Source of the DNA: Eledone cirrhosa
Lineage: Eukaryota
Assembly: GCA_964016885.1 (NCBI GenBank)
Contig: OZ024744.1
Span: 75,330,001 to 75,394,000, forward strand
Reading direction: 5' to 3'
Length of the DNA: 64,000 nucleotides
Shown here piece by piece: positions 1 through 43,015 of the stretch (the first letter of the stretch is position 1; every line of letters begins with the position of its first letter). Under the pieces are notes generated by a model. That model did not search any database, was not told where the DNA came from, and saw nothing but the letters and a program-made list of their open reading frames with translations. The translations under genes were made by a program, and so were the position numbers.

Positions 1-490
1 TGCATAACCAAGATTGAGGAACCATGTCGAATAACTTCTTGTAATCTATCCACCCCAAGGCAAGATTAGTATGTGTTCTCTTGCTGTTCCTTATCATGGG
101 ACTTCTTTCGGTATCCTTTCTGTTCCTCTGGCAAAAGGTTGTGTATGCCGAGGTGGTGGTAGATTTCCTCAGACACAATGTTTGTTAGCAATTTCCACAT
201 CAAGACAGACATGTGATAGGCCTATATTTGGTAACGTTATCTCCCTTGGCTTGATCTTTCATTATTAGGACCGTTCTATCTTTTGCCAATCACTTCAGTA
301 CTTCACCTAACACCAAGCAGTCATTCATTGAACAATTGTCAGTATCGGATGGTGAAACATCATATTTTTAGTCCAATAACCTTGCACACCATCCGGGGCT
401 GGTAATTTCCAGTTGGTTAATTTATTTAGCTGCGTTTTAAAGGTTTCAACCGAGATACTCAAGTCAGGTTATTGGTAGGCTTGTTCATTA
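1..490 (-). mobile_element. R4/Dong-type non-LTR retrotransposon fragment (RT N-terminal region), runs off window start
   Basis: Visibly homologous to 21700-22110 (e.g. ccttgcacaccatccggggctggtaatttccagttggtt); minus strand reads NWKLPAPDGVQGY and NYRPITCL-like motifs; 5' junction abuts (TAA)n at ~490-502. Confidence 0.8.
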
Positions 491-502
491 ATTATTATTA
501 TT

Positions 503-614
503 TTGGCAGTATCGGTAGAGGGTTACGTCCCTTTACGGTCTGAGTTCAAATCCCGTCGAGGTTAACTTTGCCTTTCATCCTTACGGGGTCGATAAAATAA
601 AGTATCAGTAATGT
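503..614 (+). mobile_element. tRNA-derived SINE, internally deleted, 3' end replaced by Tx1 sequence
   Basis: Box A-like TGGCAGTATCGG, box B GAGTTCAAATCC, central GCCTTTCATCCTTACGGGGTCGATAAAATAAAGTA; same family as 13720-13921. Confidence 0.9.
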
Positions 615-3521
615 ATAGACTGGATTATCTGAATGTGGCAATGTGGACATGGGCAAACCGCATCGGGTCATCGAGATCGTATTTAGATAGGGTATTCTGT
701 AGGGAAACAGAGAAGGCTAGTGTAGGTTGTCCACCACTTAAAGTATTCGACTATACGGACCACAAATTTGTGATCTGTAAAGTTGACTTAGATAGACTCC
801 ATAGGCAAGGGCCCGGCTACTGGAAGCTGAACGCGTCTTTCCCGGCGCGCAAAGCTTACAGAGACAGGATTAGCGAATTAGTTAAGCGTGCGTTGTCGGG
901 TGCGATCGTCAACAAAAGGTGGAGGTTTACCCTGAAAAGGGCTATTAGAGTAGAATCATAAGGTTTAGCACAGGAGTAGTGATAGAGGAAAATATAGTAG
1001 AGAGAGAGTTAGAAAGCTAGAAGAGGCGTTTAGGACAGGCATCGCAACCGACCTGCTTGCGGTGAGATTGGCATTCGACCAATTCTTCAACGCAAAGCAT
1101 GAAGGCTGCGTTGTCAGAGCTAGAGCGCGTGCTCTAAGAATGATGGACGAAAGCCGTTCAATGGGCCCGGGTAGGGAAGGCGCGACGTGGCAACAAAGCC
1201 ACAATTCGGTCTTTGTCTGATCAAAACGGGCGCATGATGCTCGAACCCGAGCAGAATTGTGCGGCTTTTATGCGTATATGCCAGACTTATTCGGCGACCT
1301 CTTGGCAGATGTCTACTGCAACTGGCAGCAGAACGGGAGCATTCCCAGTTTTGTGAGCCGGGGAGCGGTCGCGCTGCGGAGAAAAGACCCGAACAAGGGG
1401 GACGTTATAGACAATTTCAGGCCCATAACTCTGCTTATCGCAGTGTTTAAGATTTTGCAAAGAGATTAGCGCTTGTCGTCGGTGATCTGGTGGGAGAGGC
1501 GCAGACAAGCGCCATTCCGGACAAATCCATCTACGACAGCCTGCATCTCATGTGATACATCATAGAGATGGTGGTTAAGGAACCTGGCACGGGTGGGGCC
1601 CTGATCAACTTGGATCAATCTAAAGCATTTGATAGGGCGACCATCGGTTCCTGGCTGCGGTCTTCGAGGCGGCCGGCTTCGGGCCCGTTTTTAGGGTTGG
1701 ATCGCTGTGATGCATAGCGACATCTGTTCTATTGTGAGGGTGAATGGTCACCTATCATAGAATTTCAGCATCATGCGCTCGGTCCGCCAGGTTTGCTCCC
1801 TCACGTCCCTCGTGTACGTACGGGCCCTAGAGCCGTTACTGCACAAATAGGAGACGAAGAGGGGGTTCCCACGTGAACTGGGATGCGGGAGATCCATGTC
1901 AGCTTACGCCGACGACGTCACAGTGGTGATGTCGAGCACCAAACACGTCCAGATGCTTGGCACCAATCTCAAGGAATACGATGACAGGAGCAAAGATAAG
2001 CCAGGAAAAGTTGGTGGGTTTGCAACTCGGAACCTGGAAAGGCTAGTTCATGCCGTCCGACAGCGTTGTGGAGCGATGGATGGACGGAGCGGATAAATTG
2101 CTGGGGGTCTGGTTCGGTCCGGACCTCCAGATGGAGAAATTCTGGAGCGAGGTGTCGAGCAGAGTGGCCTCTCCCACCCAGAAATAGGGCCGAGAGGAGG
2201 CTGTCTTTGAAAGGTCGGGCGGAGATGGCGAATGCGTACATTGCGTCCGTCATCTGCTAGCGCCTGACCGGCTTACCTTTTCCCCGCCCAACTCCGACCA
2301 AAATGGAGCGCCTTTTCTTCCGCTTTTTGTGGAAGGGACGTACTCCCATGGTCAAACAATACATTTGCTGTCAACACCCGTTGCGTGGAGGACTAGGCAT
2401 GCCGTGGCTGATGATACGCAAACATGCGCTGAGGCTGCGACATATCTGGTGCTTGCTTGATGGTGAACAGGTGTGGTCGCCGTTTGTCAGACGCGCTTTT
2501 CTCCCAGCTCGTCTCTTTTACGGAGCTGCAGTCCTGGATCAGGAAAAGACAGAGGGATAGCGCTTGGAAGTTGAAATGTTTCCAAGCGTTCCTGTACCAG
2601 CTGGGCACTAGTATGGGTGGAACATCTTCCTCGGCGTTCTATAGAGTGCTAGAAGAGGGAAAGAGCGACGACGTTCTCGGGGAGACCCTGGGCGTCGAAG
2701 ACGATCAGCTGTTCGCTCTCTTCAAGAGAACTTTTAGACCAGGGTCTATGGACAACTTCCAGAAATTCCTGGCCCGGGAGCGTTGCCGGTTCGAGATAAG
2801 ATCTACAGGCACGGATGTGCTGTCAGCCGAGCCTGTCCGAGATGCGCGCAGGGCGACGAAACCGTCGTGCACGCACTCGTTCAGTGCCCGAAGATTGCTG
2901 ACTTGTGGAGCTATGTCGAACAGCTACTGCCGCGTGTAGGACGGATCCGGTTATCGACTGATTCCATTGTGCAGATAGCCATGAGATCCTCCTTTAAAGA
3001 ATTGGAAGGGCAGGCAGTTTTCATCTGCCTGGTGGCCATGGCAAAAGAGATTGTGTGGTGGACAAGGTTAAAAGTGTTGAAGACGGACACTTTCCTCTCC
3101 GGCCAATCCCTGATTAATTTTTTCAAGTTTCACTTGAAGAGGAAAGTCAGGGTGGAGAGGCAAGTGCTATCTTTTAGTAAGTTTGTTGAAAGGTGGGTGA
3201 AAGTGGCGAGTCTGGTCCGACTGAACGGGCCCGCTCTGAGTATACGCCTGTAGACTGGGGAGTGGGAAAACTGAGAGAGGGCGCTTGCCCTGTTGGTCAG
3301 GGTGACCGTGTTTGTTTGTTTTTGTGTGGTTTTCGGCACGACTGACCCTCGGAGGTTTCCCCCTTTTTGGGGAATTTTGTTGTTTGAATTTTGTTTTTAT
3401 TTCTAGCCCGGTTTTGTTATAACCTGTTTACACGACCAAACCCACTTTGTATCGTCCTGTACTGTTCTGTGCCATCTCTAATGCTTTTCTTCGTGTTAGC
3501 CCTTGTGGCCAATAAAGAAAC

Positions 3522-3558
<37 letters not shown>
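613..3558 (+). mobile_element. Tx1-type (L1 group) LINE copy 1, 5'-truncated and degenerate ORF2, (ATT)n tail
   Basis: ORF fragments 611-961, 1257-1469, 1896-2096 (YADD), 2303-2560 and 2783-3253 (CPRC..ETVVHALVQC) match ORF2 at 10004-13423; 3' UTR and (ATT)12 tail at 3523-3558. Confidence 0.95.
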
Positions 3559-3698
3559 TGCATTTATCTTGCTTTATGTTTATACGAGTTAGCACCAAGT
3601 CACAACCAGTGACCTCAAGAGACAACAAGGTCCGCCATGTTCAAGAAAGAACACACATATTCACACATGCATCCTTAGTGTTTAGACTTGTGATGTAC

Positions 3699-6293
3699 TT
3701 ATATTGACAGGATCTTCCTTAGTATATGGGCAGTTCCCATTAGTACTATCTTTTGTATTTCTCCTATACGCGGGTTTCCTGGGATTTGCGATAAGTAGTC
3801 GTTAGACCCCTTAGGTATCATTCCCAGAGCGCCTACAACCACTGGTATTGTTTTAGTTCTCAATTTCCACATTTTTCCAATTTCTATCTCCAGGTCCTTA
3901 TACTTGCTCAATTTTTCAAATGTTTTTATAGATACATTCTTGTCTATTGGAACAGACATATCAATTAGCAGGCATACCCTCCTTTGAAAGTCCTTCAATA
4001 TTATATCAGGTCTATTTGCATCTATTTTTCGGTCTGTTTGGATGCTAAAGTTCCACAAGATTGAGATGTGATCTTTTTCAAGTATGGGAGGTGGTTGATG
4101 CTCCCACCAATTCTTTTGATGGGGCAGGTCAAAATGCTTACACATTATCCAATGTATGTATTGTGCAGCTCTGTCATGCCTGTTTAGGTATTCGGTTGGA
4201 GCTATAGGACTGCACATTGAAATTATATGGTCAATGGTCTCTGGTTGTTTTTTGCATACACGGCATAGTGGGCTGCACCCATTTTTTATTATGTTGGCTT
4301 GGTAATTTTTTGTTGGCAGACACTGATCTTGTGCGGATATAATCAGTCCTTCAGTCTCCGATTTCAGTCCAGAGGATGCCAACCACTGATGGGTTAAAGT
4401 TTTGTCAACATCAGGATTGTTAGCTCGCTCTGGGTATTTTCCATACAGAGGCTTTTCTTGCCATTTCTTAGCCAGTTTCTGTAGCAGTTCTTTCTTTGCA
4501 GTTACTTTTACCTGCTTTGCTTTTTCTGTGTTTTCCATTTCAGCAGTAAATGGGACTTCTGAAATTTGTAGTCCATTACTGTATCTTTGTGCATCTTTTG
4601 TAATGGAATATGATCTTTTGGTGCTTTCGTGTTTCAAAACGAGTTTGATCATCCAATCATGTGATTCCCTTAGATATGTGGATAATCCAATTGTTGCAGT
4701 TTTCAACGCAATGTCTAACTGGATTAACCCACGTCCTCCTTCTTTCCTAGGGAGATATATTCTATCTATGTCTGTCTTAGGGTGATGCATTCTGTGCATG
4801 GTTAAGAATTTTCGGATTTTTGTATCGAGCCTACGGATCTCTGTGCTTGACCAGTTGATGACATTGTAACTGTAGGTTACTACTGGTATGGCAAGCGTGT
4901 TTATGGCATCGATCCTATTCCTTGCATTCAATTCCGTTCTTAAGATTGCTCTGACTCTGCGGTAACATTCCTTCCTTATCCTTTCCCTCATTGTCGAGTG
5001 CTTGATTCCGTCTCCTTCACAAACACCTAGATATTTGTAAGTTTGTTCTTGATCAAGCTCTCTTATCACGTTCCCCCGATCAAGATTAATGTCTGAACTC
5101 TTCAGCAGCTTTCCTCTGGTGAACGTTGCTTTGGCGCATTTATCCAGTCCAAACTCCATTTTAATGTCATCACTGAACTGCTTCACAGTGGATAATAGCC
5201 CTTGCAATTGTTCATCATTTTTTGCAAATAGTTTCAGGTCATCCATGTAGAACAGGTGATTAATGGTTTTGTCATAGACTCTATATCCATGTTTTGTTTC
5301 ATTGAGCATTTTACTTAATGGTATAAGTGCGATGCAGAATAAAAGCGGTGATAAAGAGTCACCCTGAAAAATTCCACAATTAATGTTAACTTCTCCAGCT
5401 TCCAGTGATTTTGTTTCACTATTCAAAAGGAGTGTCGTTCTCCATGTCCTCATACTGAATGACAAAAACCTCCTGACAACGGGGGATATTTTGAAAATCT
5501 CTAAACATTTTTCAATCCAACTGTGTGGCAAACTATCAAATGCTTTTTTATAATCTATCCAAGCAATCGATAGATTTTTGTGTCTATTATGACAATCTTC
5601 CAGTATCATTTTGTTAACCAGAAGCTGATCCTTACAGCCATATGAGCCTCGTTTACACCCTTTCTGCTCAATGGGAAATAGGTCATTTGTTATCAGGTGG
5701 TCATATGTGTATTCAGTTAGGACTGATGTTAAAATTTTATACATTGTGGTCAAGCAGGTTATCGGTCTGTAATTTTTGGGATTGTTTGTCTCATCATTCT
5801 TCGGTAGCAGGAATGTAATGCCGTTAACTAGCCATGATCGTATCTTTTCTGGCTCCTTAACTATTTCATTGTAAAGTTGGGCTAACAGCTCATGAGACTC
5901 TGTGAAGGCATTTATCCAAAAGTTTTGTATTTTGTCTTTTCCTGGGGATTTCCATTTGCTGGTTTTTCTTAGAGCCAAGCGCAGCTGTTCAACTGTTATA
6001 TTTTCCCATGTTTGTTCTTCAAGGTGAGCTGTTTCTTTCATTTGTCTGTCTATCCATGGGGCATGTATGTTATGAACTTTTTCTTCGGCCCAGATCTTTT
6101 CCCAGAATTCTTGCACTTCCTCCTTGGGTGGTATTGATTTAGCAGTTATTGTTGACTTACCAATTTTTCTGTAGAAGTTTCTTTGGTTGTTTTTGAACAT
6201 ATTATTGTCCTTATAGAATCTAGATCGTTTTTCAAAGCGCCTTATACGAGCAGCTTTGGCCGACACTTTTTGCTTGATTGTTTCTATCAGCAT
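3699..6293 (-). CDS. R4/Dong polyprotein C-terminal part: reverse transcriptase, CCHC zinc knuckle, restriction-like endonuclease
   Basis: 864 aa open frame with KSPGKDKI, NYRPITCL, IDYKKAFDS, GIFQGDSLSPLLF, YMDD, CRVC-x8-HIISMC, RHD, RPDII..D, KYKDL motifs. Confidence 0.93.
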   Translation of the reverse strand: MLIETIKQKVSAKAARIRRFEKRSRFYKDNNMFKNNQRNFYRKIGKSTITAKSIPPKEEVQEFWEKIWAEEKVHNIHAPWIDRQMKETAHLEEQTWENITVEQLRLALRKTSKWKSPGKDKIQNFWINAFTESHELLAQLYNEIVKEPEKIRSWLVNGITFLLPKNDETNNPKNYRPITCLTTMYKILTSVLTEYTYDHLITNDLFPIEQKGCKRGSYGCKDQLLVNKMILEDCHNRHKNLSIAWIDYKKAFDSLPHSWIEKCLEIFKISPVVRRFLSFSMRTWRTTLLLNSETKSLEAGEVNINCGIFQGDSLSPLLFCIALIPLSKMLNETKHGYRVYDKTINHLFYMDDLKLFAKNDEQLQGLLSTVKQFSDDIKMEFGLDKCAKATFTRGKLLKSSDINLDRGNVIRELDQEQTYKYLGVCEGDGIKHSTMRERIRKECYRRVRAILRTELNARNRIDAINTLAIPVVTYSYNVINWSSTEIRRLDTKIRKFLTMHRMHHPKTDIDRIYLPRKEGGRGLIQLDIALKTATIGLSTYLRESHDWMIKLVLKHESTKRSYSITKDAQRYSNGLQISEVPFTAEMENTEKAKQVKVTAKKELLQKLAKKWQEKPLYGKYPERANNPDVDKTLTHQWLASSGLKSETEGLIISAQDQCLPTKNYQANIIKNGCSPLCRVCKKQPETIDHIISMCSPIAPTEYLNRHDRAAQYIHWIMCKHFDLPHQKNWWEHQPPPILEKDHISILWNFSIQTDRKIDANRPDIILKDFQRRVCLLIDMSVPIDKNVSIKTFEKLSKYKDLEIEIGKMWKLRTKTIPVVVGALGMIPKGSNDYLSQIPGNPRIGEIQKIVLMGTAHILRKILSI

Positions 6294-6313
6294 GTCTATG
6301 TCACATGTTGATC

Positions 6314-7348
6314 TTATACTGTACTTTTTTTCAATTTTCTAAGTTTAGTTTGTTTAACATGTTCACCTACTTTATAGTTTGTTAAAATTTCTATGTCAGA
6401 TCGGAGAAGGTTTATTTGGCGATTGATGTTATCTTGCCAAGTAGATTTCTTGTGGGAATTCCTTTGTTTTTTCATCTTCACTCCACATAAGTGAGTGGTG
6501 ACTTTAGCCGATGCATAATAGAGATGATTTAAGTCAGTAATGTTTATTTTGTTTGTGATGATAATGTTTTTGAGAATTATGTTAGTCTTGTGTATTATCT
6601 TTTGGTTCTGTTTGGAGTTCTGGATCTTAGGGAGGGTGTCTCGTTCCCCCATGTCAGATTCTTTCATTTTCATCCATTCGATCATAATTTCATCCTTCAA
6701 GTTGGCAAGTTCATTCTCATTCATTTCTTTATCATTTACGATCTCATTATTTTCATTTGGAGTTTCATCCTGAGCATGCACTCCCTCCACTTTTTCGCTC
6801 CTTTCTTTAATTTGTTCTGTTGCCAGTGATTCCGCCCCAACTCTGGGATTCGAAGTGTTACAGTTTACCTCGTTTTCACTGACACATGCTTCATTTTCCC
6901 TTCGCTGACTTTGTGCTACTAGCTTGATCTGATCAATTTCTATATCAGTTAGTAACTTTTTTCTTACAATATTTCTTCGTATATTGGCTAGTTTGTTACT
7001 GTCAATATAGCCTCTGTTTTCGGGATGTTTCTTTTTCCAGTTGATATATGTTTGCTCTGTATTCGATGTATTTGATGGGTAGTACATGGCAGTGTAGAAA
7101 GCCTCAAGGACTTCTTTATTATCTTCCCTTGACCATTTTTCTCTCTTTGTCTTTGGATTTCTTGGTGGTGAGCATGGAGGGCCAACAGTAGGAGTATTCC
7201 GGTTATGGGAGGTCTCCAGCTCCGAAGTGATGGGAAGGTTTGAACCATTAGCTGATTTTTCGACCCCAGTCTGGTTCCTCTCTGAGGGACGCGGCCCTTT
7301 TTTACCCGGGTGACGGCCGATCCGGTATGAGATTTCATCATTAGACAT
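6314..7348 (-). CDS. R4/Dong polyprotein N-terminal part (Myb/SANT-like WSREDN..LEAFY segment), frameshifted from downstream part at T7 run 6325-6331
   Basis: 344-aa ORF; one extra A in the run gives KLKKKYSIRSTCDIDMLIET, continuous with 3699-6293. Confidence 0.8.
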   Translation of the reverse strand: MSNDEISYRIGRHPGKKGPRPSERNQTGVEKSANGSNLPITSELETSHNRNTPTVGPPCSPPRNPKTKREKWSREDNKEVLEAFYTAMYYPSNTSNTEQTYINWKKKHPENRGYIDSNKLANIRRNIVRKKLLTDIEIDQIKLVAQSQRRENEACVSENEVNCNTSNPRVGAESLATEQIKERSEKVEGVHAQDETPNENNEIVNDKEMNENELANLKDEIMIEWMKMKESDMGERDTLPKIQNSKQNQKIIHKTNIILKNIIITNKINITDLNHLYYASAKVTTHLCGVKMKKQRNSHKKSTWQDNINRQINLLRSDIEILTNYKVGEHVKQTKLRKLKKSTV

Positions 7349-7590
7349 CTACCTTATTTTGTCGCGTTTTATCCTTAACCGCCAAGGGGTAATCTTTTCG
7401 TGTTACCACTTCTAGAACGAGTGTCAACCAAGACTAGAGGGGTCGTTCTCCCCTAGAGACATGGCTATTCCCCGCCGGCCGCCATCCCGGTATTTCTTGG
7501 TCACGGGGTTTATTTTTGTTGTTTTTTTTAAATTGTTATTATCATGAGTGGTACCTTAATGTGAGCATTGCGTGGCTTAAGAATGAAATT

Positions 7591-7645
7591 ATTAACAATT
7601 GTCTCCACTCCAGGGACAAGGCCAGCAATCACCCAGTGCATTACA
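7591..7645 (-). mobile_element. SINE 3' tail fragment
   Basis: Minus strand gtaatgcactgggtgattgctggccttgtccctggagtggagacaattgtt, a diverged SINE tail. Confidence 0.75.
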
Positions 7646-7885
7646 ATAATATTTATTATTATCATTATTATTGAATGCCATGGTTGACGGAGGCTCGGCT
7701 CTGTAAGGTATAGTAATTTTTAACCGTTAAAACAATTGTAAATTGTTTAAAACTTGAACCAAATTGTTGATAAAGACACCCTCCTCCTCGTGAGAGGGGT
7801 CTTTCTGTCCGTTATTTGGCCCTTCGGGGTTAAATAACCAGTTATTGGGGTTTTGTACCCAAAATTTCATTTTAAACAAAAAAAC

Positions 7886-9968: not shown

Positions 9969-10003
9969 GTGGTCTTTCCCATCTTTTCCACTCTATTTTA
10001 AAC

Positions 10004-13423: not shown

Positions 13424-13683
13424 ATTAAAGGTGGAAAACTGGGAGAGGGCACTTGCCTTGGTGGTCAGGGTCATTGTGGCTTTTTACTGGGCTTTCTCCA
13501 CAAATGTCCCTCCGAAGTCTCCCCCCTATTGGGGAATTTTTCATTGTTATTTTCATTGTTATTTTTGTTACATCCTCTGTTTTTGTTTTTTTACACGCAG
13601 AAATGCCCATTTGTACCGTCCTGCATTGTCCTGCACTGTCCTTAATGTCTACTTTATGTAAACCCTTGTGGTTAATAAAGAAA

Positions 13684-13718
<35 letters not shown>

Positions 13719-13719
13719 G

Positions 13720-13921
13720 TAGGGCGGTGGATTGGCAGTATCGGTAGAGGATCGGACGCCATGCTTTCCAGCATAGTTACGTCCCTTTACGATCTGAGTT
13801 CAAATCCCGCCGAGGTTGACTTTGCCTTTCATCCTTACGGGGTCGATAAAATAAAGTACCAGTAATGCACTGGGTAATTGCTGGCCTTGTGCCTAAAGTA
13901 GAAACAATTATTATTATTATT
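13720..13921 (+). mobile_element. tRNA-derived SINE, full length, (ATT)n tail
   Basis: GGCGGTGGATTGGCAGTATCGG (box A) ... GAGTTCAAATCC (box B) ... central domain ... GGCCTTGTGCC hairpin, AGAAAC, (ATT)n. Confidence 0.92.
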
Positions 13922-16900
13922 GTTGGTGAAGCCATGCTTCTTATCGCCTCCAGTTTTTTTTCAACGTTTTACCTCGTTTTCAACCGTTCTAAACCTTTCA
14001 TTCAAGTTTTAAATTTGATAAAAGTTTAGAAGAAGTGTCCCACCTAATACAGGGGTTCACTCGTAAATAATACGGCACCCCTTTACGGGGTGTCGTATTC
14101 GTATTCGTATTTGTGTAAAAATATTTTTTTGAAAAAATGTCAACATGGATAACACAAGAAACAGAGAGAGCGCTGTCAGACAACACAGAGAGAGGGAGAC
14201 TTTATCAGCATGTCAACAAGACAGCGTTCCAGCGGAGGTAAATATAAACGAAAATATTACAAAGGAAAAGAAGATTGTTACAGATTTAAAATTAACAAAT
14301 ATTTCTAACACAAACAACACCAACAACAACACCAACAACAACACCATCAATAACAACAGCAACAACAAAAATAACAGCGGTAAAGTCGAGAACGACAATA
14401 ACAAAAATAACAGCGGTAAGGTCGAGAACGACAATAACAATGACAATAACAACAGCCACAACAACAATAATAGTAGGAACAGTATCAACAAAAACAACAA
14501 TAATAACAACAGCCACAATAACAATAACAACAGCAACAGTATCAACGAAAACAATAACAACAACACCAACAACACCAACAACTGTACCAACGAAAACAAC
14601 AACAATGACATCGATACCTGTAATAGCGATCTCAGCACCACCAGTAAGACCAGTGGCGGCAGCAATAGTGGTGCTGCTGAAAAAGGGACCACTTCTTTTG
14701 CCGGTGTCGCCCGAAATATCGAGACAGTGTTAGTCACAGAGGAGGAGATGGCAGTCTCAAGGACATGGTGACAAGAAGCTCCCTGAAACCTCCACCCGAT
14801 TTTTTCAAGGACCAGCTGCTACGGACGGTGACTTACCGCACCGTAAGCAAAATCTCACATCGGGTGGAGAGAGCCACGGAGGTTCAAATCTAAAAGGCCT
14901 TGGGGTGCGTCTGGGCACGCAAAACCCATATCACCCGAGGCAGAAAGTACGCCACAATAGACGTACTTTTGGCCACCCCCCCAGGAAGCAAAGTCTAACT
15001 CTTTGGAAACCCTAAAGAGTGAGGAGATAGTCTTGGTGCCCTCCTACTGCGGGCAGAAAATTGTGAGGGTCAAAGTGACCCAGGTCCCACCCGACGTGCC
15101 CATACCTTGGCTGGCCGCGTCTGTCCTTGTTGGAATCGAGAACAGGATGACCATGCTGCAAGTAGAAAAAATAGGGAGAGAGAACTGGTCAGGTATAGAC
15201 ATGCAAATGCTTATACAAACTGACCAGGAATGTATCGACGCAATCCCCGATATCATAGACATCGAGGAAGGACACCAACTCCCTATAAGTGTAGAAGGAA
15301 GACGGCCAAAATGTTATCTCTGTGGGTCGAAGGGTCACCTCAGGGCCTTTTGCCCGCGAAGACAACGAAGAAGAAGGCCCCTCTCCTTCCAATACCTGGT
15401 CCGCTGCTACCAAGAGCAGGGCAGGCAACAAACGCAGAAGCCCCTTCCACGGTGAGTAGGAGGGCAACGTCCGTAGCACCCGTACAAAGGCCACGGACAA
15501 CTAAAGCAGCATCATCAGTGGCGGCAACACCAATAGCTACATTTGAAGTAGCTACACCAGCAACAAAATTGCCGAAGAGGGCTCCACTACCACCACCAAC
15601 AGTCGTGGAGCACATACCCCTCCCAGACTCCACAGAATCCGACATAGGGTTTGAGGCGGGAGTGAAGTGGCAAACGGTCTGCCACAAAAAAGAAAAAAGA
15701 AAAAAACCCCTTAGATTCACCCTCCAAAAGCGAAGGCATACAAAAAGGGGTAAAGGCAGCAAGGAAACTTGCAGCAACACCACCAACATCACCACCACAA
15801 GCACCACTGACAACAACAACCACACCACCACCAGCATCACCAAAAACACCAACAACGCAAACACAACAAGACACACACACCAAACAGCAACAAGAAGAAA
15901 ACAGCAACAAAATCACCCCTCCCCCCAAAAATGTACACAGCCATAAACATGGCAAAAAAAAGAACTCATACAATATATAAAGCAGCATACAGACATCACG
16001 GAAAAAAACTACTACACCCCACCAACACCAAGAACTCTCCCGGCAAACATAAGCATCATCGAAATCTCAATAGAAGCCTTTAAAACAAAAATTCCCCAAC
16101 GCAGTTGGAGACTTCAGAGGGACGGTTACCAAGAGGATATACATTGACAGTATAAATGCCCGTGGCCTGGGGTCATCTTGGAAGCTGAGTCACCTGCTCA
16201 ACGACCTCAGGTCACTAAACATAGATGTGGTGGCCATCAGTGAGACCAGAATCTCCGAAGCATGTGCCTTCGCACCGATCTTCGGCGGCTACGATGTATA
16301 CGCATCTCCCAGCCGTCCAGGATCGGGGGGAGGGGTTGCCGTGCTTTTTCGCAGTGGCTTGGAACTCGTGACACGGGCCATCTTCCTGGACCCAGAAGGT
16401 AAGTCGGTGGTGCTTGACGCGACCGGCAGCGAAGGCAATGCTTTCAGGTTAGTAGCTGTCTATGCCCCAACAGGGGCAGGACGGCCAGATTTCTTCAGAC
16501 GTCTAGAGACCTTTCTTGGAACGTCCCGCTCTTTAGTGTTAGTGGGCGACTGGAACGGTATCGTGGATGCACGCTGGGATTTTGTGGGGCTAGTGGATAG
16601 GGGAGGAGGGTGCAAGAGCCTCACCAACCTGCTCAGACGTTTTGAACTGTCTGACAGGTATCGACTGGATCACCCGAATGTGCCAATGTTGACATGGACA
16701 AACCGCATCGGGTCATCCAGATCGTATCTCGATAGGGTTTTCTGCAGAGAACTAGATAAGGCTAGTATAAGTTGTCCACAATTTAAAATAGTCGACTACA
16801 CAGACCACAATTTTGTGATCTGTGAGATCGACATAGACAGACTTCATAGACAAGGGCCTGGTTACTGGAAGCGGAACGCGGCTTTCCCGGCGCGCAAATC

Positions 16901-19829
16901 TTACAGAGACCGGATTAGCGTATTAGTTAAGCGGGCGTTGACGGGAGCTTTAGTCAACAACAGTTGGTGGTTCGCTCTGAAAAGGGAAATTAAAGTAGAG
17001 TCGATTAGGTTTAGCAAAGGAGTAGTGATAGAGGAAAATAGAGTAGAGTGAGAGCTAGTCAGAAAGCTAGAAGAGGCGTTTAGGACAGGCATCGCAACCG
17101 ACTTTCTAGCGGCGAGATTGGCACTCGACCAATTCTTCAACGCAAAACACGAAGGCTGCGTTGTCAGAGCTAGAGCGCGTGCTCTGAAACACGAGGGGAA
17201 AAAAAGCCGTCCAATGGGCCCGGGTTGCAGAGGCGTGACGTGACAACAAAGCCACAATTCGGTCTTTGTCTGACCAAAACGGGTGCGTGATGCTCGAACC
17301 CGAGCCGATGTGTGAAGCTTTTCAGCAGCACTTTGCTGAACTGTTCGGGAGCAGCGGCGGCCCCGATCGGGCATGGACTTCAGTGCATACCTCGACGGAC
17401 TGCCTCGGCTCTCGACGACCGCAGCACAGTGTTGCGAAAAGCCAATAACAGCCGGTGAAATACGGGAAGCGATGGCTAACTGCACAAGGGGTAAATCGCC
17501 AGGTTTGGATGATCTGCCCTACGAGCTTTATGCATTTATGCCAGACTTGTTCGGTGACCTCTTGGCAGACGTCTACTGCAACTGGCAGCAGAACGGGAGC
17601 ATTCCCAGTTTTGTGAGCCGGGGAGCAGTGGCGCTGCTTAGAAAAGACCCGAACAAGGGGGATGTTATCGATAATTTCAGGCCCATAACTCTGCTAAACG
17701 CAAAGTTCAAGATTTTGGCCAAGGTGTTATCAACGAGGTTGGAGCTTGTCGTCAAGGGTCTGGTAGGAGAGGCGCAGACATGCGCCATTCTGGACAGATC
17801 CATACACGTCAACCTCCACCTAATGCGATACATCATAGAGAGGGTGGTTAAGGAACCTGGCAGGGGTGGGGCCCTGATCAACTTGGATCAATCCAAAGCA
17901 TTCGATAGGGTCGACAATCGGTACCTGGCGGCGTCCTCGAGGCAGCCGGTTTCGGGCCCGTTTTCAGGGGTTGGATCGCAGCAATGTACAGCGACATCTG
18001 CTCAGTTGTGATGGTGAACGGTCACCTGTCGCAGCCTTTCAGCATCATGCGCTCAGTCCGCCAGGGTTGTCCCCTCTTGTCCCTCTTGTACGTATTGGCT
18101 CTCGAGCCGTTACTGCACAAATTGGGGGCGATGAGGGGCGTCCCACGCGAACTAGGATGCGGGAAATCCGAGTCGGTTCACGCTGACGACATCACCGTGG
18201 TGGTGTCGAGCACCAGATACGTCCAGATGCTCGGCACCGCTCTCAATGAATACGAAGCGGTGACAGGGGCTAAGATAAACCAGGAAAAGTCGGTGGGCTT
18301 GCAGCTAGGTACCTGGAGAGGCAAGTCTATGCCGTCGGACAGCGTCGTGGGGCGTTGGACAGACGGACCGGTTAAATTGCTCGGGGTCTGGTTCGGACCG
18401 GACCTCGAGATGGAGAAAAACTGGAACGAGGTGACGAGCAGGGTGGCCTCCCTCACCCAGGAATGGGCCGAGAGGAAGCTGTCCCTGAAAGGCCGGGAGG
18501 AGGTGGCGAATGCGTACATCGCATCCGTCATCTGCTACCGCCTCACCATCGTGCCTTTCTCCAGCCCAACTCTCACCAAAATGGAGCGCCTCCTCTTCCG
18601 CTTTTTGTGGAAGGGACGCGCTCCCATGGTCAGACGATCCATCTGCTTTCAACACCCATTGCGTGGAGGACTGGGCATGCCATGGCTGATGATGCGCAAA
18701 CATGCGCTGAGGCTGCGACATCTCTGGTGCTTCCCTGATGGTGAACAGGTGTGGTCGCCGTTCGCCAGGCACATTTTCCCACAGCTCGTCTCCTTGACGG
18801 AGCTGCAATCCTGGGTCAGAAAAAGACCGAGGGATAGCGCTTGGAAACTGGAATGTTTCCAGACGCTCACTGCCCCCTGCCAGCTGGGCACCAGTATCGT
18901 TGGAACATCCACCTCGGCGTTCTATAGAGGACTAGGGGAGGGGAAGAGCGACGACATTCTTGGAGCGATACTGGGCGTCGAAGAAGATCAGCTGTTTGCT
19001 CTCTTCAAGAGAACTTTCAGCCCAGGGCCTATGGATAACTTCCAAAAATTCCTGGCCTGGCAGTGCTACCGGGGAGCGCTGCCGGTTCGAGATAAGCTCT
19101 ACAGGCACGGAAGTGCCGTCAGCCGAGCCTGTCCGAGATGCGCGCAGAGCGACGAAACCGTCGTGCTCGCACTCGTTCAGTGCCCGAGCATTGCTGACTT
19201 GTGGAGCTATGTCGAACAATTGCTGTGGCCGGTGGGTCTGTTCCGGTTGTTGACTGAGTCCATTGTGCAGATGGTCTCGCCGTCTTCCTTCGAGGAGGAA
19301 GGGCAGGTGGTTTTCATCTGCCTGGTGGCCATGACGAAAGAGATTGTGTGGTGGACAAGGTTAAAAGGATTAAATACATACACTTTCCTCTTCGGCGAAT
19401 CCCTAATTAACTTTTTCAAGTTTCACTTGAAGAGGGAAATCAGGGTGGAGAGGCAAGTGCTGCCTTCTAGCAAGTTTGTTGAAAGGTGGGTGAATGTACG
19501 TCTGTAGTTTGAGAAATGGAAAAATTGAGAGAGGGCGCTTGCCTTGTTGGTTAGGGTGGCCGTGGTCTTTTGTGTGGTTTTCGCCATGAGTAACCCTCGA
19601 AAGTTTCCGCCCTATTGGGGAATTTTTCATTATTTCAATTTTCATTTTTATTGTTTACATATATATACATTTTTCTATGTCCTTTTTTTCTTTTCTTATA
19701 TAAATAATAAAAATATTTACACGCACAAAACCCACATCGTACCGTCCTGTACCGTCCTGTGACGTCTGTAATGTTTTTTTCTTGATGTCAGCCCTTGTGG
19801 CCAATAAAGAAATCACTATTATTATTATT
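13922..19829 (+). mobile_element. Tx1-type LINE copy 3, near full length, multiple stops and frameshifts
   Basis: ORF1 fragments from ATG 14145 incl. CYLCGSKGHLRAFC; ORF2 fragments 16227-17051, 17373-18011, 17984-19507; deletion across the ORF1/ORF2 junction (~16145); (ATT)n tail. Confidence 0.95.
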
Positions 19830-22745
19830 GTACTTTGAGTCTCAGTCATTGATGTTAGTTAACTGGAAAGTTTGTTAAAATGAATATCAAGCCACTACCT
19901 GCAGCCTCAGATATTCAGGACGTATCGGAGGGTTCTTGCTGTTCCCAGCAAGCATGCTTTTTGAAGCGTTCCAAAAGCCGGTGCGGGGGCCAATTTTCTT
20001 TAACCATCCCTGGAAACTTTTTGAGATAGTCCCCAGTGCGCCTATGACAATCGGGACCACTTTGACTTCATGGCAGTTCCAAATCCTTTTTACCTCCCAC
20101 TTTAAGTCCTGGTATAGGTTAATTTTCTCCCTCTCCTTCTCTTGCACTCTCGTGTCAAATGGGCAGGCCACACCCACAATCAGGCACGATCTTTTTTCCT
20201 TGTCCAAAACAACTAGTTCAGGTCTATCGTGTTCCAGTTTCTTGTCCGTCTGTATCCTAAAATCCCACAGCACCTTCACCTGATCATTTTCTATCACCGC
20301 CTCTGGCTTATGCTCATACCACTTCTCAGAATGTGGTAAATTGTTTTCTTTGCATAGGTGCCAGTGGATCACCCTGCCCTCACATCATGTCTCCAGCCTT
20401 TATAGTGAGTCTGAGCTAGGTGTTTACACTCGGATACAATGTGAGCCACAGTCTCCTCTCTCTCTCCACTGATCCTGCACAGTGGGCTAGCCCCCTCCTT
20501 GTAAATATGGTGTTTCAACCACTACGTTTTGAGGGCCTGCTATTGCGCAGCCATTATCATTCCTTCTGTAGCCTTTTTAAGATCTCCTCTTTTCAACCAG
20601 TTCCATGTCTGTGGATCTCTGAATTCAGTTTTCTCAAAGAAGGTATTATGAAGGGATTGTTCATGAAGGCTGCTCTTTCTCCTTCTTGTTATTTCCTCCT
20701 TGGACATCCCCTGGTCTATTGTCCTCTCCTTCAGTACAATTCTGAGCATTGGCTCCTTACTATCAGTCACGTATTTGTGTATGTTGTTTTTCTCCATCTG
20801 AACACAGTCCTCTATGCTGATAAGACATCTTCCACCTCCAGATCTCCTTAAGTAGAGTCTATCGACATCACTCCTCTTGTGGGACATGTTGTAGATAGTC
20901 AATAGCTTCCTAGTCTTCCTATCCATTTCTTTTTGTTCAGCAACATTCCATCTCAGAATTCCCGCACTGTACCTAATAATAGACACAGCTCGGGAATTTA
21001 CTGCACTTATGGCATTCCTACTGTTCAGATGTGACTTTAATACGCTCCTTACTCTCCGAATGTATTCAGATCTTATCAATTCCTTCATTTTTTGTTCTTG
21101 ATGTCATCAGCCTCCAGAACGCCCAAATACTTGTATCCTTCTTCAGTGTCAATTTCTTTATCATCTCACCTGTTGGTACCTGGATTCGGTTGCTTCTTCT
21201 CAATTTACCCCTCTTCATCACAAGGACACCACATTTACTAATACCAAATTGCATACATATATCATTGCTGAAAATACGGACAGTGTCAACAAGCACATCC
21301 AACTCCTTCTCACTCTTCCCGAAGAGCATTAGATCGTCCATGAAGAGGCGGTGATTGATGGTAAGCCCTCCCTTTCCCAACTTGTATCCTGCTCTCACTT
21401 TTCGCAGTATAATGGCCAGGGGCATCAGGGCAAGGACAAACAACAGAGGGGACAGGCTATCTCCCAGGAAGATACCTCTCTTGATCTTCACGCCTCCCAA
21501 GGATTCTCCAGCTGATGTTAACTCTGTTTTCCAGGACTTCATACTTTTGCTCTGATGTTATCTGCCACTTGAAGATCTCTAGGCTTTTGGTGATCCAAGA
21601 ATGAGGCACCATGTCAAATGCCTTTTTGTAGTCTATCCATCCCATGGCAAGACCAGTGTGTCTCCTCTTGCAATTCCTCATTACCATTTTATCAATAAGT
21701 AACTGGTCCTTTGTACCACGGGACTTCTTTCGCCATCCTTTCTGTTCGTCCGGTAACAAGTTGTTTGTGTGGAGGTGATGGTAGATTTCCTCAGACACAA
21801 TGCTTGTCAACAGTTTCCACATTACGGACAGACATGTGATAGGTCTATAGTTGGTAACATCACTACCCTTGATTCGGTCTTTCATTACCAGAACTGTGGT
21901 ACCTTTTTTCAACCACTTTGGTACCTCACCTGACATCAAGCAGTCATTGAACATGGTTGTCAGTTTCGAGTGGAGGCATGTTATATTTTTAATCCTATAA
22001 CCTTGCACACCATCTGGGCCTGGTGATTTCCAGTTGGTTAGTTTTCTGGCCTGCCCCTTAAGAGTTTCAACTGTGATACTCAAACCAGTTTGTTGGTGTG
22101 CCTGTTCACTAATCTCCTTTTGTACTGTCTCAATCCACACTGCCTGGTCATTATGTTTAACATCCTGGTCCCATATTCCTCTCCAGAATGTCTTAGTTTG
22201 TTCCGCTTCAGGTATCAAGTCGTTGCCTCTTTCTTTCCCTTCAATCTGTCCAAACAACATCTTCTGGCTGTTGTCAAACATGCGGTTCTGTCTATACTGA
22301 CTGACTCTGCTCTCGTATCGCCTAATTTTCGCCCTCTTTGCTACAACGCGTTGCTTCAGTTCCTCTATGATAATATTTCCTCCTAGTTTTGTACTTTATT
22401 TCCAGTCTATTTTTAGTGTCTATGTCCCATTCAGCTTTCCAATGTCATTTCTCATTTCCCTGATTTGACCATTCAGTCGTTTCTTCCACCAAGGTTCTGA
22501 TCTTTCTTGTTTGTTGTTTCCTCTCGCTTTTATGCCAAGTAATTTCCTCACCGCATTTGCTGTTGCTTTGAGGATATTGTTGCACTGGTGAAGGCTCCTC
22601 GCCTCAAGGTATGGGATGACTTTGTTTACCTTAGCTGTTGTTTCTTTTAACTTTTTCCTGTCTACAAATCTTAGGTTCATAGGTTTCCCACTATCATTGT
22701 TCAAGTCATCTACCACTAAGTTTAGGATATCAACCAAATCTTGTC
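19830..22745 (-). mobile_element. R4/Dong-type retrotransposon, second subfamily, 5'-truncated and degenerate
   Basis: ORF fragments 22420-22737, 21457-22281 (KSPGPDGVQGY, IDYKKAFD), 21066-21542 (GDSLSPLLF, FMDD), 20540-21088, 19887-20372 (RLE: WDFRIQTD, RPELVV, PIVIGALG). Confidence 0.92.
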
Positions 22746-22789
22746 CTAGCCCTTGTGGTTAATAAAAAAAGCATTATTATTAATATTAT
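22746..22789 (+). mobile_element. Extreme 3' stub of the Tx1 LINE
   Basis: cctagcccttgtggttaataaaaaaagcattattatt matches the terminal 35 nt of Tx1 copies 1-3. Confidence 0.75.
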
Positions 22790-22905
22790 GATCTGAGTTC
22801 AAATCCCGCCGAGGTTAACTTTGCCTTTCATCCATACTGGTTCGATAAAATAAAGTACCAGTAATGTACTGGGTAATTGCTGGCCTTGTGCTAAAAGTAA
22901 ACACA

Positions 22906-22935
<30 letters not shown>
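22790..22935 (+). mobile_element. SINE, 5'-truncated, (ATT)n tail
   Basis: Box B through tail match family. Confidence 0.9.
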
Positions 22936-22938
<3 letters not shown>

Positions 22939-22959
22939 ATAAATATCATCATCATCATC

Positions 22960-23645
22960 ATCAGCCTCATTCGTTTTTGCTCTGTCAGTTGTTATACCGA
23001 CACTATACCAAAAGAGCAGGACAATTGGCAAATTCCCTTTCGGTCATTCCTTCTTCAACTTTCTAACACCCTCCTTGAATCCTTGCTGTTCCTAGCAAAG
23101 CTGTTTTCTGCAATGTTCATCATGTCCTGCAAGATCATATACTATCCGTTTTCAGTAAACCTTTCTGGTTAGTGTTCATGCCATTTCTCACTTCTGCTCA
23201 TATCATACTTATGTCATAGTTTCCCAATGAACCAATCTAGCAATGTTGTTGTGCCTTCTCTTGTGCCCTTTCTGAGCGAGAATCTTACATTCACTAATAA
23301 TGTGGTTTATTGTTTCACCTTTCACACCATACAACCTACAAAGTGGGGAATTCACCGGCTTGTCAATATTGATCTTGATATAGTTCCTTCTCAGTGCCAG
23401 TTCCTTGGCAGCAAAAATAACCTCTCTTCTCCATTCAAGATCTTATTCAGTTGTTCAGCAATTCTCCCATGAAAGGCCCTCAATATTTTCAACCAGAGCC
23501 CTTGCACACCGTCTCTGTCGGGGCTTTTCCAATTTGGTATATTTCTACACTGGATAGTTATCATATCAGTTGCTATCTCTAATTCTCCCTTTTGGTCATC
23601 CCTAATGTCCTTTTTTATGTTAGTCAACCACTCCAGACTTCTATT
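22960..23645 (-). mobile_element. Highly degraded R4/Dong-type fragment
   Basis: ORF 23391-23627 reads [20 protein letters not shown], homologous to the RT-proximal region of the other copies. Confidence 0.7.
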
Positions 23646-24091
23646 ATGCTGTTTTTAATATTTTTAATATTATTATCATCACTAGCAGAAACCACCCTTC
23701 GAATGGTTTTCTGCTAGCATGTGTAGTGTGCATATTGATATTATGCACAAATATATATACATGTAGATATGATTCGTCAAATAAAATCGTAATTGACAAT
23801 ATAAACAGAAATTGAAGAGAGACTGTGTTACACTCTTTTCCGTAATCAGTAAAGTAATCCATGATACATTTAAAAAAGACGATATTATATACAAACATTA
23901 TATAACGATGCGAATATATGAACGTTTATATAACCGATATAATAGGGAGTACATTATATCATAACCGGAAGTATTGGCATTTGAAAATATTTAAATAAGT
24001 CAATCTTGAAATAAACAATAAAATTATTTATATTTAATCAAGAGTTACGAAATTTAGTAAATAAATTATATAATATTCATTCATTATTTAT

Positions 24092-24334
24092 TTTGGCAGT
24101 ATCGGTAGAGGGTCGGACGCCATGCTTTCTAGCATAGTTACGTCCCTTTACAGTCTGAGTTCAAATCCCGCCGAGGTTAACTTTGCCTTTCATCCTTACG
24201 GGGTCGATAAAATAAAGTACCAGTAATGTACTGGGTAATTGCTGGCCTTGTGCCTAAAGTAGAAACGATTATTTATTCAAAGTAATTGCTGGCCTTGTGC
24301 CAAAAGTAGAAACAATTATTTATTCAAAGTAATC
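24092..24334 (+). mobile_element. SINE with duplicated 3' tail
   Basis: Full family sequence; tail unit gtaattgctggccttgtgcc(t/a)aaagtagaaac(g/a)attatttattcaaa occurs twice. Confidence 0.9.
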
Positions 24335-41885: not shown

Positions 41886-42380
41886 TGATGATGATGATGA
41901 TGATGATGGTGGTGACGATGATGATGATGGTGGTGGTGATGATGACGATGGTGGTGGTGATGATGACGATGATGATGACGATGATGATGGTGGTGGTGGT
42001 GGTGGTGATGATGATGATGGTGGTGGTGATGATGATGATGATAATGATGTTGACGATGATGACGATGATGACGATGATGGTGGTGGTGATGATGGTGGTG
42101 ATGATGGTGGTGGTGGTGGTGGTGGTGGTGGTGATGATGATGATGGTGATGATGGTGATGATGATAGTGATAATGATGATGATGATGATGACGATGATGA
42201 TGGTGATGATGGTGATGATGGTGATGATGACGGTGGTGGTGGTGATGATGATGATAGTGGTCGTGGTGGTGGTGGTGATGATGATGATGATGATGATGGT
42301 GGTGATGACGATGATGACGATAATGGTGGTGATGGTGATGATGATGATGATGATGACAATGATGACGATGATGGTGGTGG

Positions 42381-42426
<46 letters not shown>

Positions 42427-42478
42427 GGTGATGATGGTGATGGTCATGATGGTCATGATGATGATGATGGTCATGATG

Positions 42479-42510
<32 letters not shown>

Positions 42511-42581
42511 GGTGGTGGTGATGGTGATGATGATGGTGGTGATGATGGTGATGATGATGATGATGATGGTGGTGGTGATGG

Positions 42582-42631
<50 letters not shown>

Positions 42632-42796
42632 GTGGTGATGGTGATGATGATGGTGGTGATGATGGTGGTGGTGGTGATGGTGATGATGGTGAGGATGGTG
42701 AGGATGGTGGTGGTGATGATGATGATGGTGATGATGGTCATGATGATGATGATGATGATGATGGTGGTGGTGATGATGATGATGGTGATGATGGTC

Positions 42797-42829
<33 letters not shown>

Positions 42830-42926
42830 GGTGTGATGGTGATGATGATGGTGATGATGATGGTCATGATGATGATGATGATGATGATGATGGGTGTGAT
42901 GGTGATGATGATGGTGATGATGATGG

Positions 42927-42970
<44 letters not shown>

Positions 42971-42978
42971 ATGGTGGA

Positions 42979-43015
<37 letters not shown>

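What the first reader, a model, noticed from the sequence alone, without database searches (positions are those of the whole stretch)
1..24330. Self-feeding nest: Tx1/SINE (ATT)n tails on + and Dong-type elements on - stack on the same microsatellite
Seen: order is Dong(-), SINE+Tx1(+), Dong(-), Tx1(+), SINE(+), Tx1(+), Dong(-), Tx1 stub+SINE(+), Dong(-), SINE(+). Most junctions are (ATT)n (490-502, 3523-3558, 7655-7672, 13686-13717, 13907-13921, 19817-19829, 22773-22789, 22906-22935). All Tx1 copies are +, all Dong copies are -, and two Tx1/Dong pairs are tail-to-tail on one shared tract. Known: Dong-type R4-clade elements insert in (TAA)n repeats, and several Tx1 families are target-specific. 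Inference: each Tx1/SINE insertion lays down a fresh target for three element classes with two different endonucleases (APE, RLE), producing polarised arrays.
Basis: partly seen in the sequence, partly recalled or inferred. Interest (0 to 1): 0.75.

Follow-up and report, generated by a model that had tools for sequence, protein, structure and literature searches.

The report
Opposite-facing retrotransposons stack on ATT repeats
Two unrelated kinds of jumping gene sit in the same ATT repeats across this animal's genome and almost always face opposite ways, piling up into arrays of 30 to over 100 kb, likely because each insertion splits and partly duplicates the repeat rather than bringing its own repeat tail, and newcomers likely sometimes copy their front half from the copy next door.

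Summary
The nest is real and genome-wide. The window holds the right 24 kb of a ~31-kb array. Of 1,635 5' ends of the young Tx1-like family, 1,550 follow (ATT)4. All 58 Dong-like 3' ends inspected abut the tract from the other strand. Pooled junctions: Dong 144/144 antisense, SINE 43/43 sense, Tx1 145/149 sense. The 'tail' reading is wrong. The SINE has no (ATT)n tail: it makes 8-21-bp target duplications at ATTAT, mostly in unique DNA, and shares its 3' end with Tx1. For Tx1 and Dong the tracts are targets found on both sides. New target likely comes from splitting plus duplication; a CR1-like LINE with true (ATT)n tails likely seeds some tracts. A sister Tx1 lineage in (ATCT)n has no Dong neighbours (0/10 versus 10/20). 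Added here: adjacent Tx1 copies (44 pairs, 20 loci) are more alike than random copies in the 5' third (ratio 0.70, P=0.003), not the 3' third (0.96); the contrast alone is not significant (P=0.13). This suggests cDNA completion on the neighbour, alongside DNA duplication. The scan noted the polarised arrays before, on other DNA of this genome.

The parts
1..490 (-). Old, decayed Dong-like RLE element, 5'-truncated; continues ~1 kb left of the window
   Evidence: tblastn aa 113-275 of the Dong ORF; 73% to the copy at 21595-22113; L211 9034-10000; best identity to other fetched copies 77%
491..502 (+). (ATT)4 junction tract
503..612 (+). SINE fragment, fused without a tract to the Tx1-like copy (likely later deletion or microhomology join)
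613..3522 (+). Old Tx1-like copy, 5'-truncated in the APE domain, broken ORF2
   Evidence: tblastn to ORF2 aa 238-1204; zf-RVT; best identity 82%
3523..3558 (+). (ATT)12, shared tail-to-tail by Tx1 and Dong
3559..7651 (-). Young Dong-like element (family 'Dong2'): RT, CCHC and PD..D..K RLE; one frameshift near 6324 that most other copies lack; truncated within its ~1.1-kb-longer leader
   Evidence: (R2 structures, E 6e-26, aa 112-825), 66 table 4, 94 (99.7% best identity)
7652..7672 (+). Imperfect ATT tract (~7 units), head-to-head Dong/Tx1 junction
7673..13685 (+). Young full-length Tx1-like element ('Tx1a', 6,013 bp): ORF1 from 7886 (frameshifted near 8930; zinc knuckle), intact ORF2 10004-13423 (APE-RT-zf)
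   Evidence: (human L1 ORF2p E 8e-52); 99.5% best identity
13686..13717 (+). (ATT)10 tract
13718..13906 (+). Full-length ~190-bp SINE; A- and B-box-like motifs (recalled consensus); last ~25 nt resemble the Tx1 3' end
13907..13921 (+). (ATT)5, consistent with a 15-bp target duplication
13922..19813 (+). Full-length Tx1-like element of another subfamily ('Tx1b'), frameshifted
   Evidence: best identity 95%
19817..19829 (+). (ATT)4, shared tail-to-tail
19830..22740 (-). Dong-like element of a second family ('Dong3'), 5'-truncated, frameshifted
   Evidence: intact 1,126-1,141-aa single ORFs in 3 of 8 longer copies elsewhere
22741..22785 (+). 32-bp Tx1 3' stub plus short imperfect ATT tract
22786..22935 (+). 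5'-truncated SINE plus (ATT)10
22965..23660 (-). Strongly decayed, internally deleted Dong-like remnant
   Evidence: tblastn aa 665-730 (E 8e-8) and 87-181 (E 1e-5); no DNA hit among fetched loci
24086..24330 (+). Solo SINE with tandem duplication of its last 47 bp and a 10-bp non-tract target duplication; outside the array proper

Best explanation
This is a mixed array of Tx1-like (APE) and Dong-like (RLE) retrotransposons plus a SINE that likely rides on Tx1; Tx1 and Dong sit in (ATT)n on opposite strands, and the array likely grows because each insertion splits a tract and duplicates part of it. Shown: Tx1 lies with ATT on its sense strand at both ends. Dong lies with TAA on its sense strand at both ends, truncated copies included. 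Polarity follows from these two strand-specific targets alone. Inferred: the Tx1 APE nicks the AAT strand and the Dong RLE nicks the ATT strand. Each event leaves two tracts where there was one; Tx1 and SINE add an 8-21-bp duplication and Dong carries a few AAT/AAC units at its 3' end. Seeds are ordinary microsatellites, some of them CR1-like tails. Inferred with lower confidence: when a Tx1 cDNA is primed just upstream of a resident near-identical copy, it often anneals to that copy and copies its 5' part and the upstream tract, giving full-length hybrid tandems. Unequal exchange then expands some runs.
For: Targeting: 1,550 of 1,635 Tx1a 5' ends follow (ATT)4 and 1,474 follow (ATT)6. 30/30 Dong3 and 28/28 printed Dong2 3' ends abut a tract; 11 of 12 visible truncated Dong2 5' ends do too. 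Polarity at 237 pooled tracts: Dong 144/144, SINE 43/43, Tx1 145/149. Tract-first sample: 15 of 30 (ATT)7+ tracts touch Tx1 or Dong, and 5 more touch a sense SINE. Internal control: (ATCT)n-type Tx1 (71% DNA identity, same 3' motif) has 0/10 Dong neighbours against 10/20 for ATT-type, two of the ten being diverged matches (Fisher P=0.011). Duplication: SINE duplications of 8-21 bp in 36 of 55 copies, 23 starting ATTAT. All 35 full-length Tx1a measured keep at least 6 units upstream. The window's youngest copies are central and decayed ones lie at both edges. Hybrids: L147/L148 are identical for 2,905 nt, then differ at 26 sites; L328/L329 are identical for 3,681 nt, then differ at 9. Neighbour/background difference ratio by third is 0.70, 0.89, 0.96. 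Tract interruptions repeat in front of successive copies in four runs.
Against: No empty allele was observed, so the net gain of repeat per insertion is not measured. Only one Tx1 copy gave a readable duplication (8 bp). 3' tracts are not significantly longer than 5' tracts (medians 13 vs 10, P=0.14), so a short Tx1 tail is neither shown nor excluded. Samples are the first 30 hits on one chromosome and are clustered, so they are not independent. The 5'-versus-3' contrast in neighbours is not significant (P=0.13) and the 5' third has twice the informative sites. 21 of 44 adjacent pairs have more than 12 family-site differences and look independent; a few share the 3' part instead. L323 and L325 are identical, which is DNA duplication or an assembly artefact. 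None of 30 CR1-like tails had a Dong or sense Tx1 directly behind, although 1 of 3 in the tract-first sample did. The age gradient is biased by which families were fetched.
Confidence: 0.75

Rival explanations
1. Tail feeding: Tx1 and SINE synthesise new (ATT)n tails, which are the main source of target.
For: Every ATT-type Tx1 3' end runs into ATT. In 13 of 18 non-tandem-flagged copies the 3' tract is longer than the 5' one (P=0.07). Units left of a shared interruption vary between copies of one run, as a variable tail would give.
Against: The SINE has at most 2 units behind it in 42 of 55 copies. L011 shows duplication with no added tail. Tracts are on both sides of Tx1 and Dong.
Confidence: 0.2
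2. Arrays are mainly products of DNA-level tandem duplication and unequal exchange through the ATT tracts; insertion only seeds them.
For: A run of at least 17 near-identical full-length Tx1a copies over 100 kb with local variants and mosaic haplotypes, an ABAB run with two identical copies, and near-duplicate pairs with 3-11 differences.
Against: The window's neighbours are different families or subfamilies. Most junctions join different classes. Dimers with unique flanks share only the 5' part (L147/L148, L121/L122).
Confidence: 0.15
3. Elements insert broadly, and polarised arrays are what survives selection or deletion (for example removal of inverted neighbours).
For: Some junctions in the window lack tracts and show deletion (612/613, 22740/22741). 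A few inverted ATT/AAT junctions exist.
Against: 95% of 5' ends of a family only ~1% diverged, with 69 of 79 ORF2s intact, already lie in tracts. The sister lineage lies in a different repeat.
Confidence: 0.05
4. Targeting comes mainly from RNA-DNA pairing (transcripts read through AATAAA into the flanking repeat and pair with the nicked strand), with a loosely specific endonuclease.
For: The SINE, which shares the Tx1 3' motif, uses short ATTAT sites genome-wide. Recurrent AAC variants at Dong3 3' ends suggest transcripts run into the repeat. This is compatible with the best explanation and changes only where specificity resides.
Against: APE domains of ATT- and ATCT-type copies differ consistently at several positions. 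Published Tx1 specificity is attributed to the endonuclease (PMC4494074, passages).
Confidence: 0.3

Closest known systems
Dong (R4 clade; Bombyx, Anopheles, Biomphalaria, Darwinula) - PMC3812793, PMC7998251, PMC3774820, passages read
   Same: Single ORF with RT, CCHC and RLE, no N-terminal zinc finger, (TAA)n on the sense strand at both ends. Dong-R4 is listed as recently active in Octopus vulgaris (PMC13282606, passages).
   Different: Here it shares its tracts with an APE element. No HDV-like ribozyme was found at the 5' end. The leader weakly matches the Tx1 5' UTR.
Microsatellite-specific Tx1 families: Kibi (TC)n, Koshi (TTC)n, crocodilian (TTCC)n/(TTTC)n - PMC4494074 (passages, section 15), PMC3812793 (passages)
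   Same: APE-RT-zf ORF2, strand-specific insertion in a microsatellite.
   Different: Targets are (ATT)n and, in a sister lineage, (ATCT)n, which these passages do not list; the target is shared with an RLE clade.
R1 tandem arrays formed by insertion into the 14-bp target duplication, and TE dimers from insertion-site preference expanded by unequal exchange - PMC2718515, PMC5932611, passages read
   Same: An insertion re-creates its own target, giving head-to-tail runs that can expand.
   Different: The target is a dispersed microsatellite, two clades feed on it from opposite strands, and the duplicated stretch in tandems can reach 24-59 bp and is often accompanied by a shared 5' part of the element.
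SINEU mobilised by Tx1-Mar - PMC4494074, passages read
   Same: A SINE likely moved by a Tx1 element, with overlapping target preference.
   Different: SINEU has poly(A) tails and was linked by target only; this SINE has no poly(A), shares ~25 terminal nt with Tx1 and has a much looser target (ATTAT).
L1 chimeras formed by cDNA annealing to a resident L1 in cultured cells (Gilbert et al. 2005; recalled, paper not held, seen only as a reference in PMC11702581)
   Same: A cDNA primed at the target completes itself on a nearby homologous copy.
   Different: Here it would be a recurring natural route to full-length tandem copies, because targeting places new copies beside old ones.

Membership tests
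Dong / R4 clade | Single ORF with RT followed by CCHC and PD..D..K restriction-like endonuclease | tested here: met
   RVT_1; alignment to R2 structures through the CCHC and RLE motifs; intact 1,126-1,141-aa ORFs in 3 of 8 Dong3 copies
Dong / R4 clade | (TAA)n target on the sense strand at both ends | tested here: met
   58/58 3' ends; 11/12 truncated 5' ends; 11 full-length 5' ends
Dong / R4 clade | No N-terminal zinc fingers | tested here: met
   N-terminal 344 aa has no CxxC pair and no such Pfam hit in 34 homologues
Dong / R4 clade | Divergent N-terminal SANT/Myb domain | tested here: inconclusive
   Invariant W72, W104, R124, but no SANT/Myb hit by HMMER; the published detection needed HHpred
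Dong / R4 clade | 5' HDV-like ribozyme (shown for Bombyx Dong) | tested here: inconclusive
   No Rfam hit in 6 loci; a home-made descriptor gave weak sense hits in 2 of 11 5' ends
Dong / R4 clade | RT phylogeny with named R4/Dong references | not testable with these tools
   120 best homologues carry no clade names
Tx1 clade (L1 group) | ORF1 with zinc knuckle; ORF2 APE-RT-C-terminal zinc motif, closest solved relative L1 ORF2p | tested here: met
   APE catalytic motifs present (residues judged from recall)
Tx1 clade (L1 group) | Sequence-specific target | tested here: met
   1,550/1,635
Tx1 clade (L1 group) | RT phylogeny placing it with Tx1 rather than other L1 lineages | not testable with these tools
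   No named Tx1 reference among homologues; the label rests on architecture, targeting and the L1-Tx1 label used for octopus genomes
tRNA-derived SINE with LINE-derived 3' end | tRNA-related head | tested here: inconclusive
   A/B-box-like motifs by eye; no ARAGORN or Rfam tRNA hit
tRNA-derived SINE with LINE-derived 3' end | 3' end shared with a partner LINE | tested here: met
   Last 25 nt beat 5,000 shuffles against 7 of 8 Tx1 ends (0-23 shuffles as good; L193 283); no similarity to Dong or CR1-like ends
CR1-type LINE with microsatellite tail (seeder) | 3' (ATT)n tail without a 5' tract | tested here: met
   25/30 ends have 3-10 units; 1 of 23 visible 5' alignment ends has a tract. The CR1 label is from recalled protein motifs, not from a tool

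The most novel reading that the evidence does not exclude
A genome-scale retrotransposon guild on one microsatellite: RLE and APE clades split (ATT)n by strand, CR1-like tails seed it, duplication renews it, and forced adjacency turns arrays into recombination sites where truncated Tx1 cDNAs are routinely completed on the neighbour. That would give full-length hybrid elements, reshuffle haplotypes and 5' modules (same ORF2 behind different 5' UTR/ORF1; a Tx1-like leader on Dong), and start 6-kb-unit satellites of over 100 kb.
Probability: 0.35. Interest if true: 0.78.

Novelty: new variant of a known kind. Interest (0 to 1): 0.55.

Why it matters
Microsatellite targeting, Dong in (TAA)n and self-renewing targets (R1) are each known. 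What I did not find in nine literature searches is an (ATT)n-specific Tx1 lineage, two endonuclease classes sharing one repeat from opposite strands, or neighbour-completed tandem LINEs in a natural genome. Half of the long ATT tracts sampled touch these elements, so they shape this genome's microsatellites and TE hotspots. Young intact ATT- and older ATCT-type sisters, plus a SINE with a looser target, give a natural series for asking whether endonuclease or RNA pairing sets specificity.

Tried and rejected
A DNA similarity search of the own genome returned nothing because common words are skipped; exact patterns were used instead. My early note that a minus-strand SINE piece breaks polarity was wrong: it is part of the Dong2 leader. 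Laying Logan contigs of four runs on window 1-20000 gave no empty allele, because repeats are skipped and all parts are multicopy. No RNA holder was listed, which says nothing about expression. Rfam and a descriptor search found no convincing ribozyme. HMMER found no SANT domain. Homologue searches gave no clade names; the nearest named RT relative is from Argonauta hians (73%), so the host is likely an octopod. A longer 3' than 5' tract as a sign of tail synthesis was not significant. A purely 5'-sharing rule for tandems was rejected: many pairs are independent and some are whole duplicates. Kojima and Fujiwara 2004, Xiong and Eickbush 1993 and Gilbert 2005 were not held; Repbase and the figure and supplements of PMC4494074 were not seen and may list an ATT-targeting Tx1.
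Full report
OBSERVATION. Three Tx1-like bodies and a 32-bp stub lie on +, four Dong-like bodies on -, and SINEs on +. The central Tx1-like copy (7673-13685) has an intact 1,139-aa APE-RT-zf ORF2. The central Dong-like copy (3559-7651) has RT, CCHC and RLE motifs and one frameshift that most contigs of other copies lack. Neighbours are not duplicates: Tx1 copies are 78-85% identical and Dong copies belong to at least three families. Two junctions lack a tract, the last SINE is a solo insertion, and the array begins ~7 kb left of the window. Best identity to other fetched copies is over 99% for the central elements and 77-88% at the left edge, and the right-edge remnant has no hit. This suggests growth from the inside, with the caveat that the fetched set favours the central families.

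GENOME-WIDE TEST. The genome is 3.0 Gb; the nearest named RT relative is from Argonauta, so the host is likely an octopod. Exact patterns give 16,509 Tx1-type 3' ends, 1,635 Tx1a 5' ends, 7,540 Dong3 and 4,514 Dong2 3' ends, 51,221 SINE heads (inflated by tandem arrays of the head) and 33,393 ends of (ATT)7+ tracts. 1,550 of 1,635 Tx1a 5' ends follow (ATT)4 and 1,474 follow (ATT)6. In the first 30 loci, 26 have a Tx1, Dong or SINE on the far side of that tract. All 30 Dong3 and all 28 printed Dong2 3' ends abut a tract (2 Dong2 loci lost to a script crash). 22 of the 30 Dong3 ends have one of the three classes beyond the tract, and 11 of 12 visible truncated Dong2 5' ends run into ATT. Over 237 distinct tracts in the first 210 loci, Dong is antisense to ATT in 144/144 junctions, SINE sense in 43/43 and Tx1 sense in 145/149; three exceptions are places where an ATT and an AAT tract meet. 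Starting from tracts rather than elements, 15 of 30 touch Tx1 or Dong and 5 more a sense SINE. Ten of 30 Tx1 3' ends belong to a sister lineage in (ATCT)n/(AT)n; none has a Dong neighbour, against 10 of 20 ATT-type ends (8 close, 2 diverged matches; P=0.011). The association is therefore mediated by the repeat. These samples come from one chromosome arm and are clustered.

WHO SUPPLIES THE TARGET. Not SINE tails: 42 of 55 near-full-length SINEs have at most 2 ATT units behind them, and 36 have 8-21-bp duplications, 23 beginning ATTAT, most often after C or T. The SINE's last 25 nt resemble Tx1 ends but not Dong or CR1-like ends, so Tx1 is its likely partner. Several SINEs sit at the first ATT behind a Tx1 or SINE end. 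One off-tract Tx1 copy shows an 8-bp duplication and no tail (L011). Full-length Tx1a keep at least 6 units upstream in 35 of 35 copies; 3' tracts are not significantly longer. Dong3 3' ends carry recurrent AAC variant units in unlinked copies (the commonest form in 12 ends), so its RNA likely brings a few units. A CR1-like LINE (label recalled from motifs) has 3-10 ATT units at 25 of 30 3' ends and a tract at only 1 of 23 visible 5' ends. It is the one family shown to lay (ATT)n at new sites, though none of those 30 tails had yet caught a Dong or sense Tx1 directly. Renewal by splitting and duplication is inferred; no empty allele could be read.

TANDEM TX1 RUNS. In four runs an interruption of the upstream tract recurs in front of successive copies (24-59 bp duplicated). 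I predicted that, if a new cDNA completes itself on the downstream resident, neighbours would share 5' but not 3' parts. In the first 11 pairs, four had no family-site difference over the first 0.9-3.2 kb. I then fetched 60 more regions around junctions found by one exact pattern. Among 79 copies at least 98% identical and 5.5 kb long, 44 adjacent pairs at 20 loci were compared with 1,912 unlinked pairs. Locus-averaged difference ratios were 0.70 (P=0.003), 0.89 (P=0.13) and 0.96 (P=0.42) for the 5', middle and 3' thirds; the 5'-minus-3' contrast gave P=0.13. Clear cases are L147/L148 and L328/L329, and near-duplicates mostly differ near the 3' end. Against a single mechanism: 21 of 44 pairs look independent, a few share the 3' part, two copies in an ABAB run are identical, and one run has at least 17 copies with mosaic local haplotypes. 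I take neighbour completion as likely for some tandems (about even odds), with unequal exchange acting as well. In the window itself insertion of different families is sufficient.

COMPARISON WITH PRINT. Dong in (TAA)n is known, including in molluscs (PMC3812793, PMC7998251, PMC3774820; passages). Tx1 families in (TC)n, (TTC)n and (TTCC)n/(TTTC)n, and a Tx1-mobilised SINE, are known (PMC4494074; passages and section 15). R1 tandems from insertion into a target duplication, and TE dimers expanded by unequal exchange, are known (PMC2718515, PMC5932611; passages). Octopus repeat surveys list Dong-R4 and L1-Tx1 as abundant or active and report hotspots; the passages read give no target or polarity (PMC13282606, PMC8967140). 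PMC4640811, PMC3747384, PMC11485995 and PMC11702581 (passages) added background only. Nine searches found no ATT-targeting Tx1, no shared-target polarised Tx1/Dong arrays and no neighbour-completed LINE tandems. Kojima and Fujiwara 2004, Gilbert 2005, Repbase and supplements were not seen. Clade labels rest on architecture and target, not on trees with named references.

EARLIER SCAN NOTES. Other windows of this genome reported the same polarised arrays, the sister lineage and a Tx1-like Dong leader. I had tested the first two before looking; the leader match I then tested partly. A look-up for hybrid tandems returned nothing.

VERDICT. Real, genome-wide and mechanistically coherent; a new variant built from known parts. 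Interest 0.55.

Noticed in passing
L332-L348 (G000:C4:357950300-358054000): At least 17 consecutive full-length Tx1a copies (over 100 kb), many preceded by the same GTT(ATT)6 interruption; ends of the run not reached.
   Followed up: partly
L005, L008, L010, L014, L015, L020, L022, L024, L027, L029, L213-L217: A sister Tx1 lineage (~71% DNA identity) with the same 3' motif lies in (ATCT)n/(AT)n instead of (ATT)n; its APE domain differs at several positions.
   Followed up: partly
L181, L202, L208, L229-L258: A CR1-like LINE (4,876 exact 3' ends) carries true (ATT)3-10 tails at non-ATT sites.
   Followed up: partly
L170, L179, L221, L222, L289: Copies with a different 5' UTR/ORF1 (51-56% aa) joined to a Tx1a-type ORF2 (95-97% DNA) at the same point just upstream of ORF2: a 5'-module swap.
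   Followed up: no
L046, L180 and other full-length Dong 5' ends; window 7590-7644: Dong2 and Dong3 share a ~360-bp leader. Its first 260 nt weakly match Tx1 5' UTRs (0-4 of 1,000 shuffles for Tx1a; lead from earlier findings). The Dong2 leader also holds a 45-bp piece like the SINE 3' end.
   Followed up: partly
L106-L115; G000:C1:10.32-10.33 Mb: The SINE's first 45 bp form long tandem arrays (minisatellite), which inflates the 51,221 head count.
   Followed up: no
L136/L137: Two neighbouring Dong2 3' ends share a variant seen in only these 2 of the first 100 listed copies, while the Tx1a copies between them differ.
   Followed up: no
window 33121-33783 (-): PIF1-like helicase fragment (Pfam E 3e-26), likely Helitron-derived.
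   Followed up: no
window 41886-43052: (TGA)389 microsatellite of 1.2 kb.
   Followed up: no
window 23680-23730; L242: A short repeated element with an internal inverted repeat starts right after the array's last tract-like stretch; the same element follows a CR1-like tail in L242.
   Followed up: no
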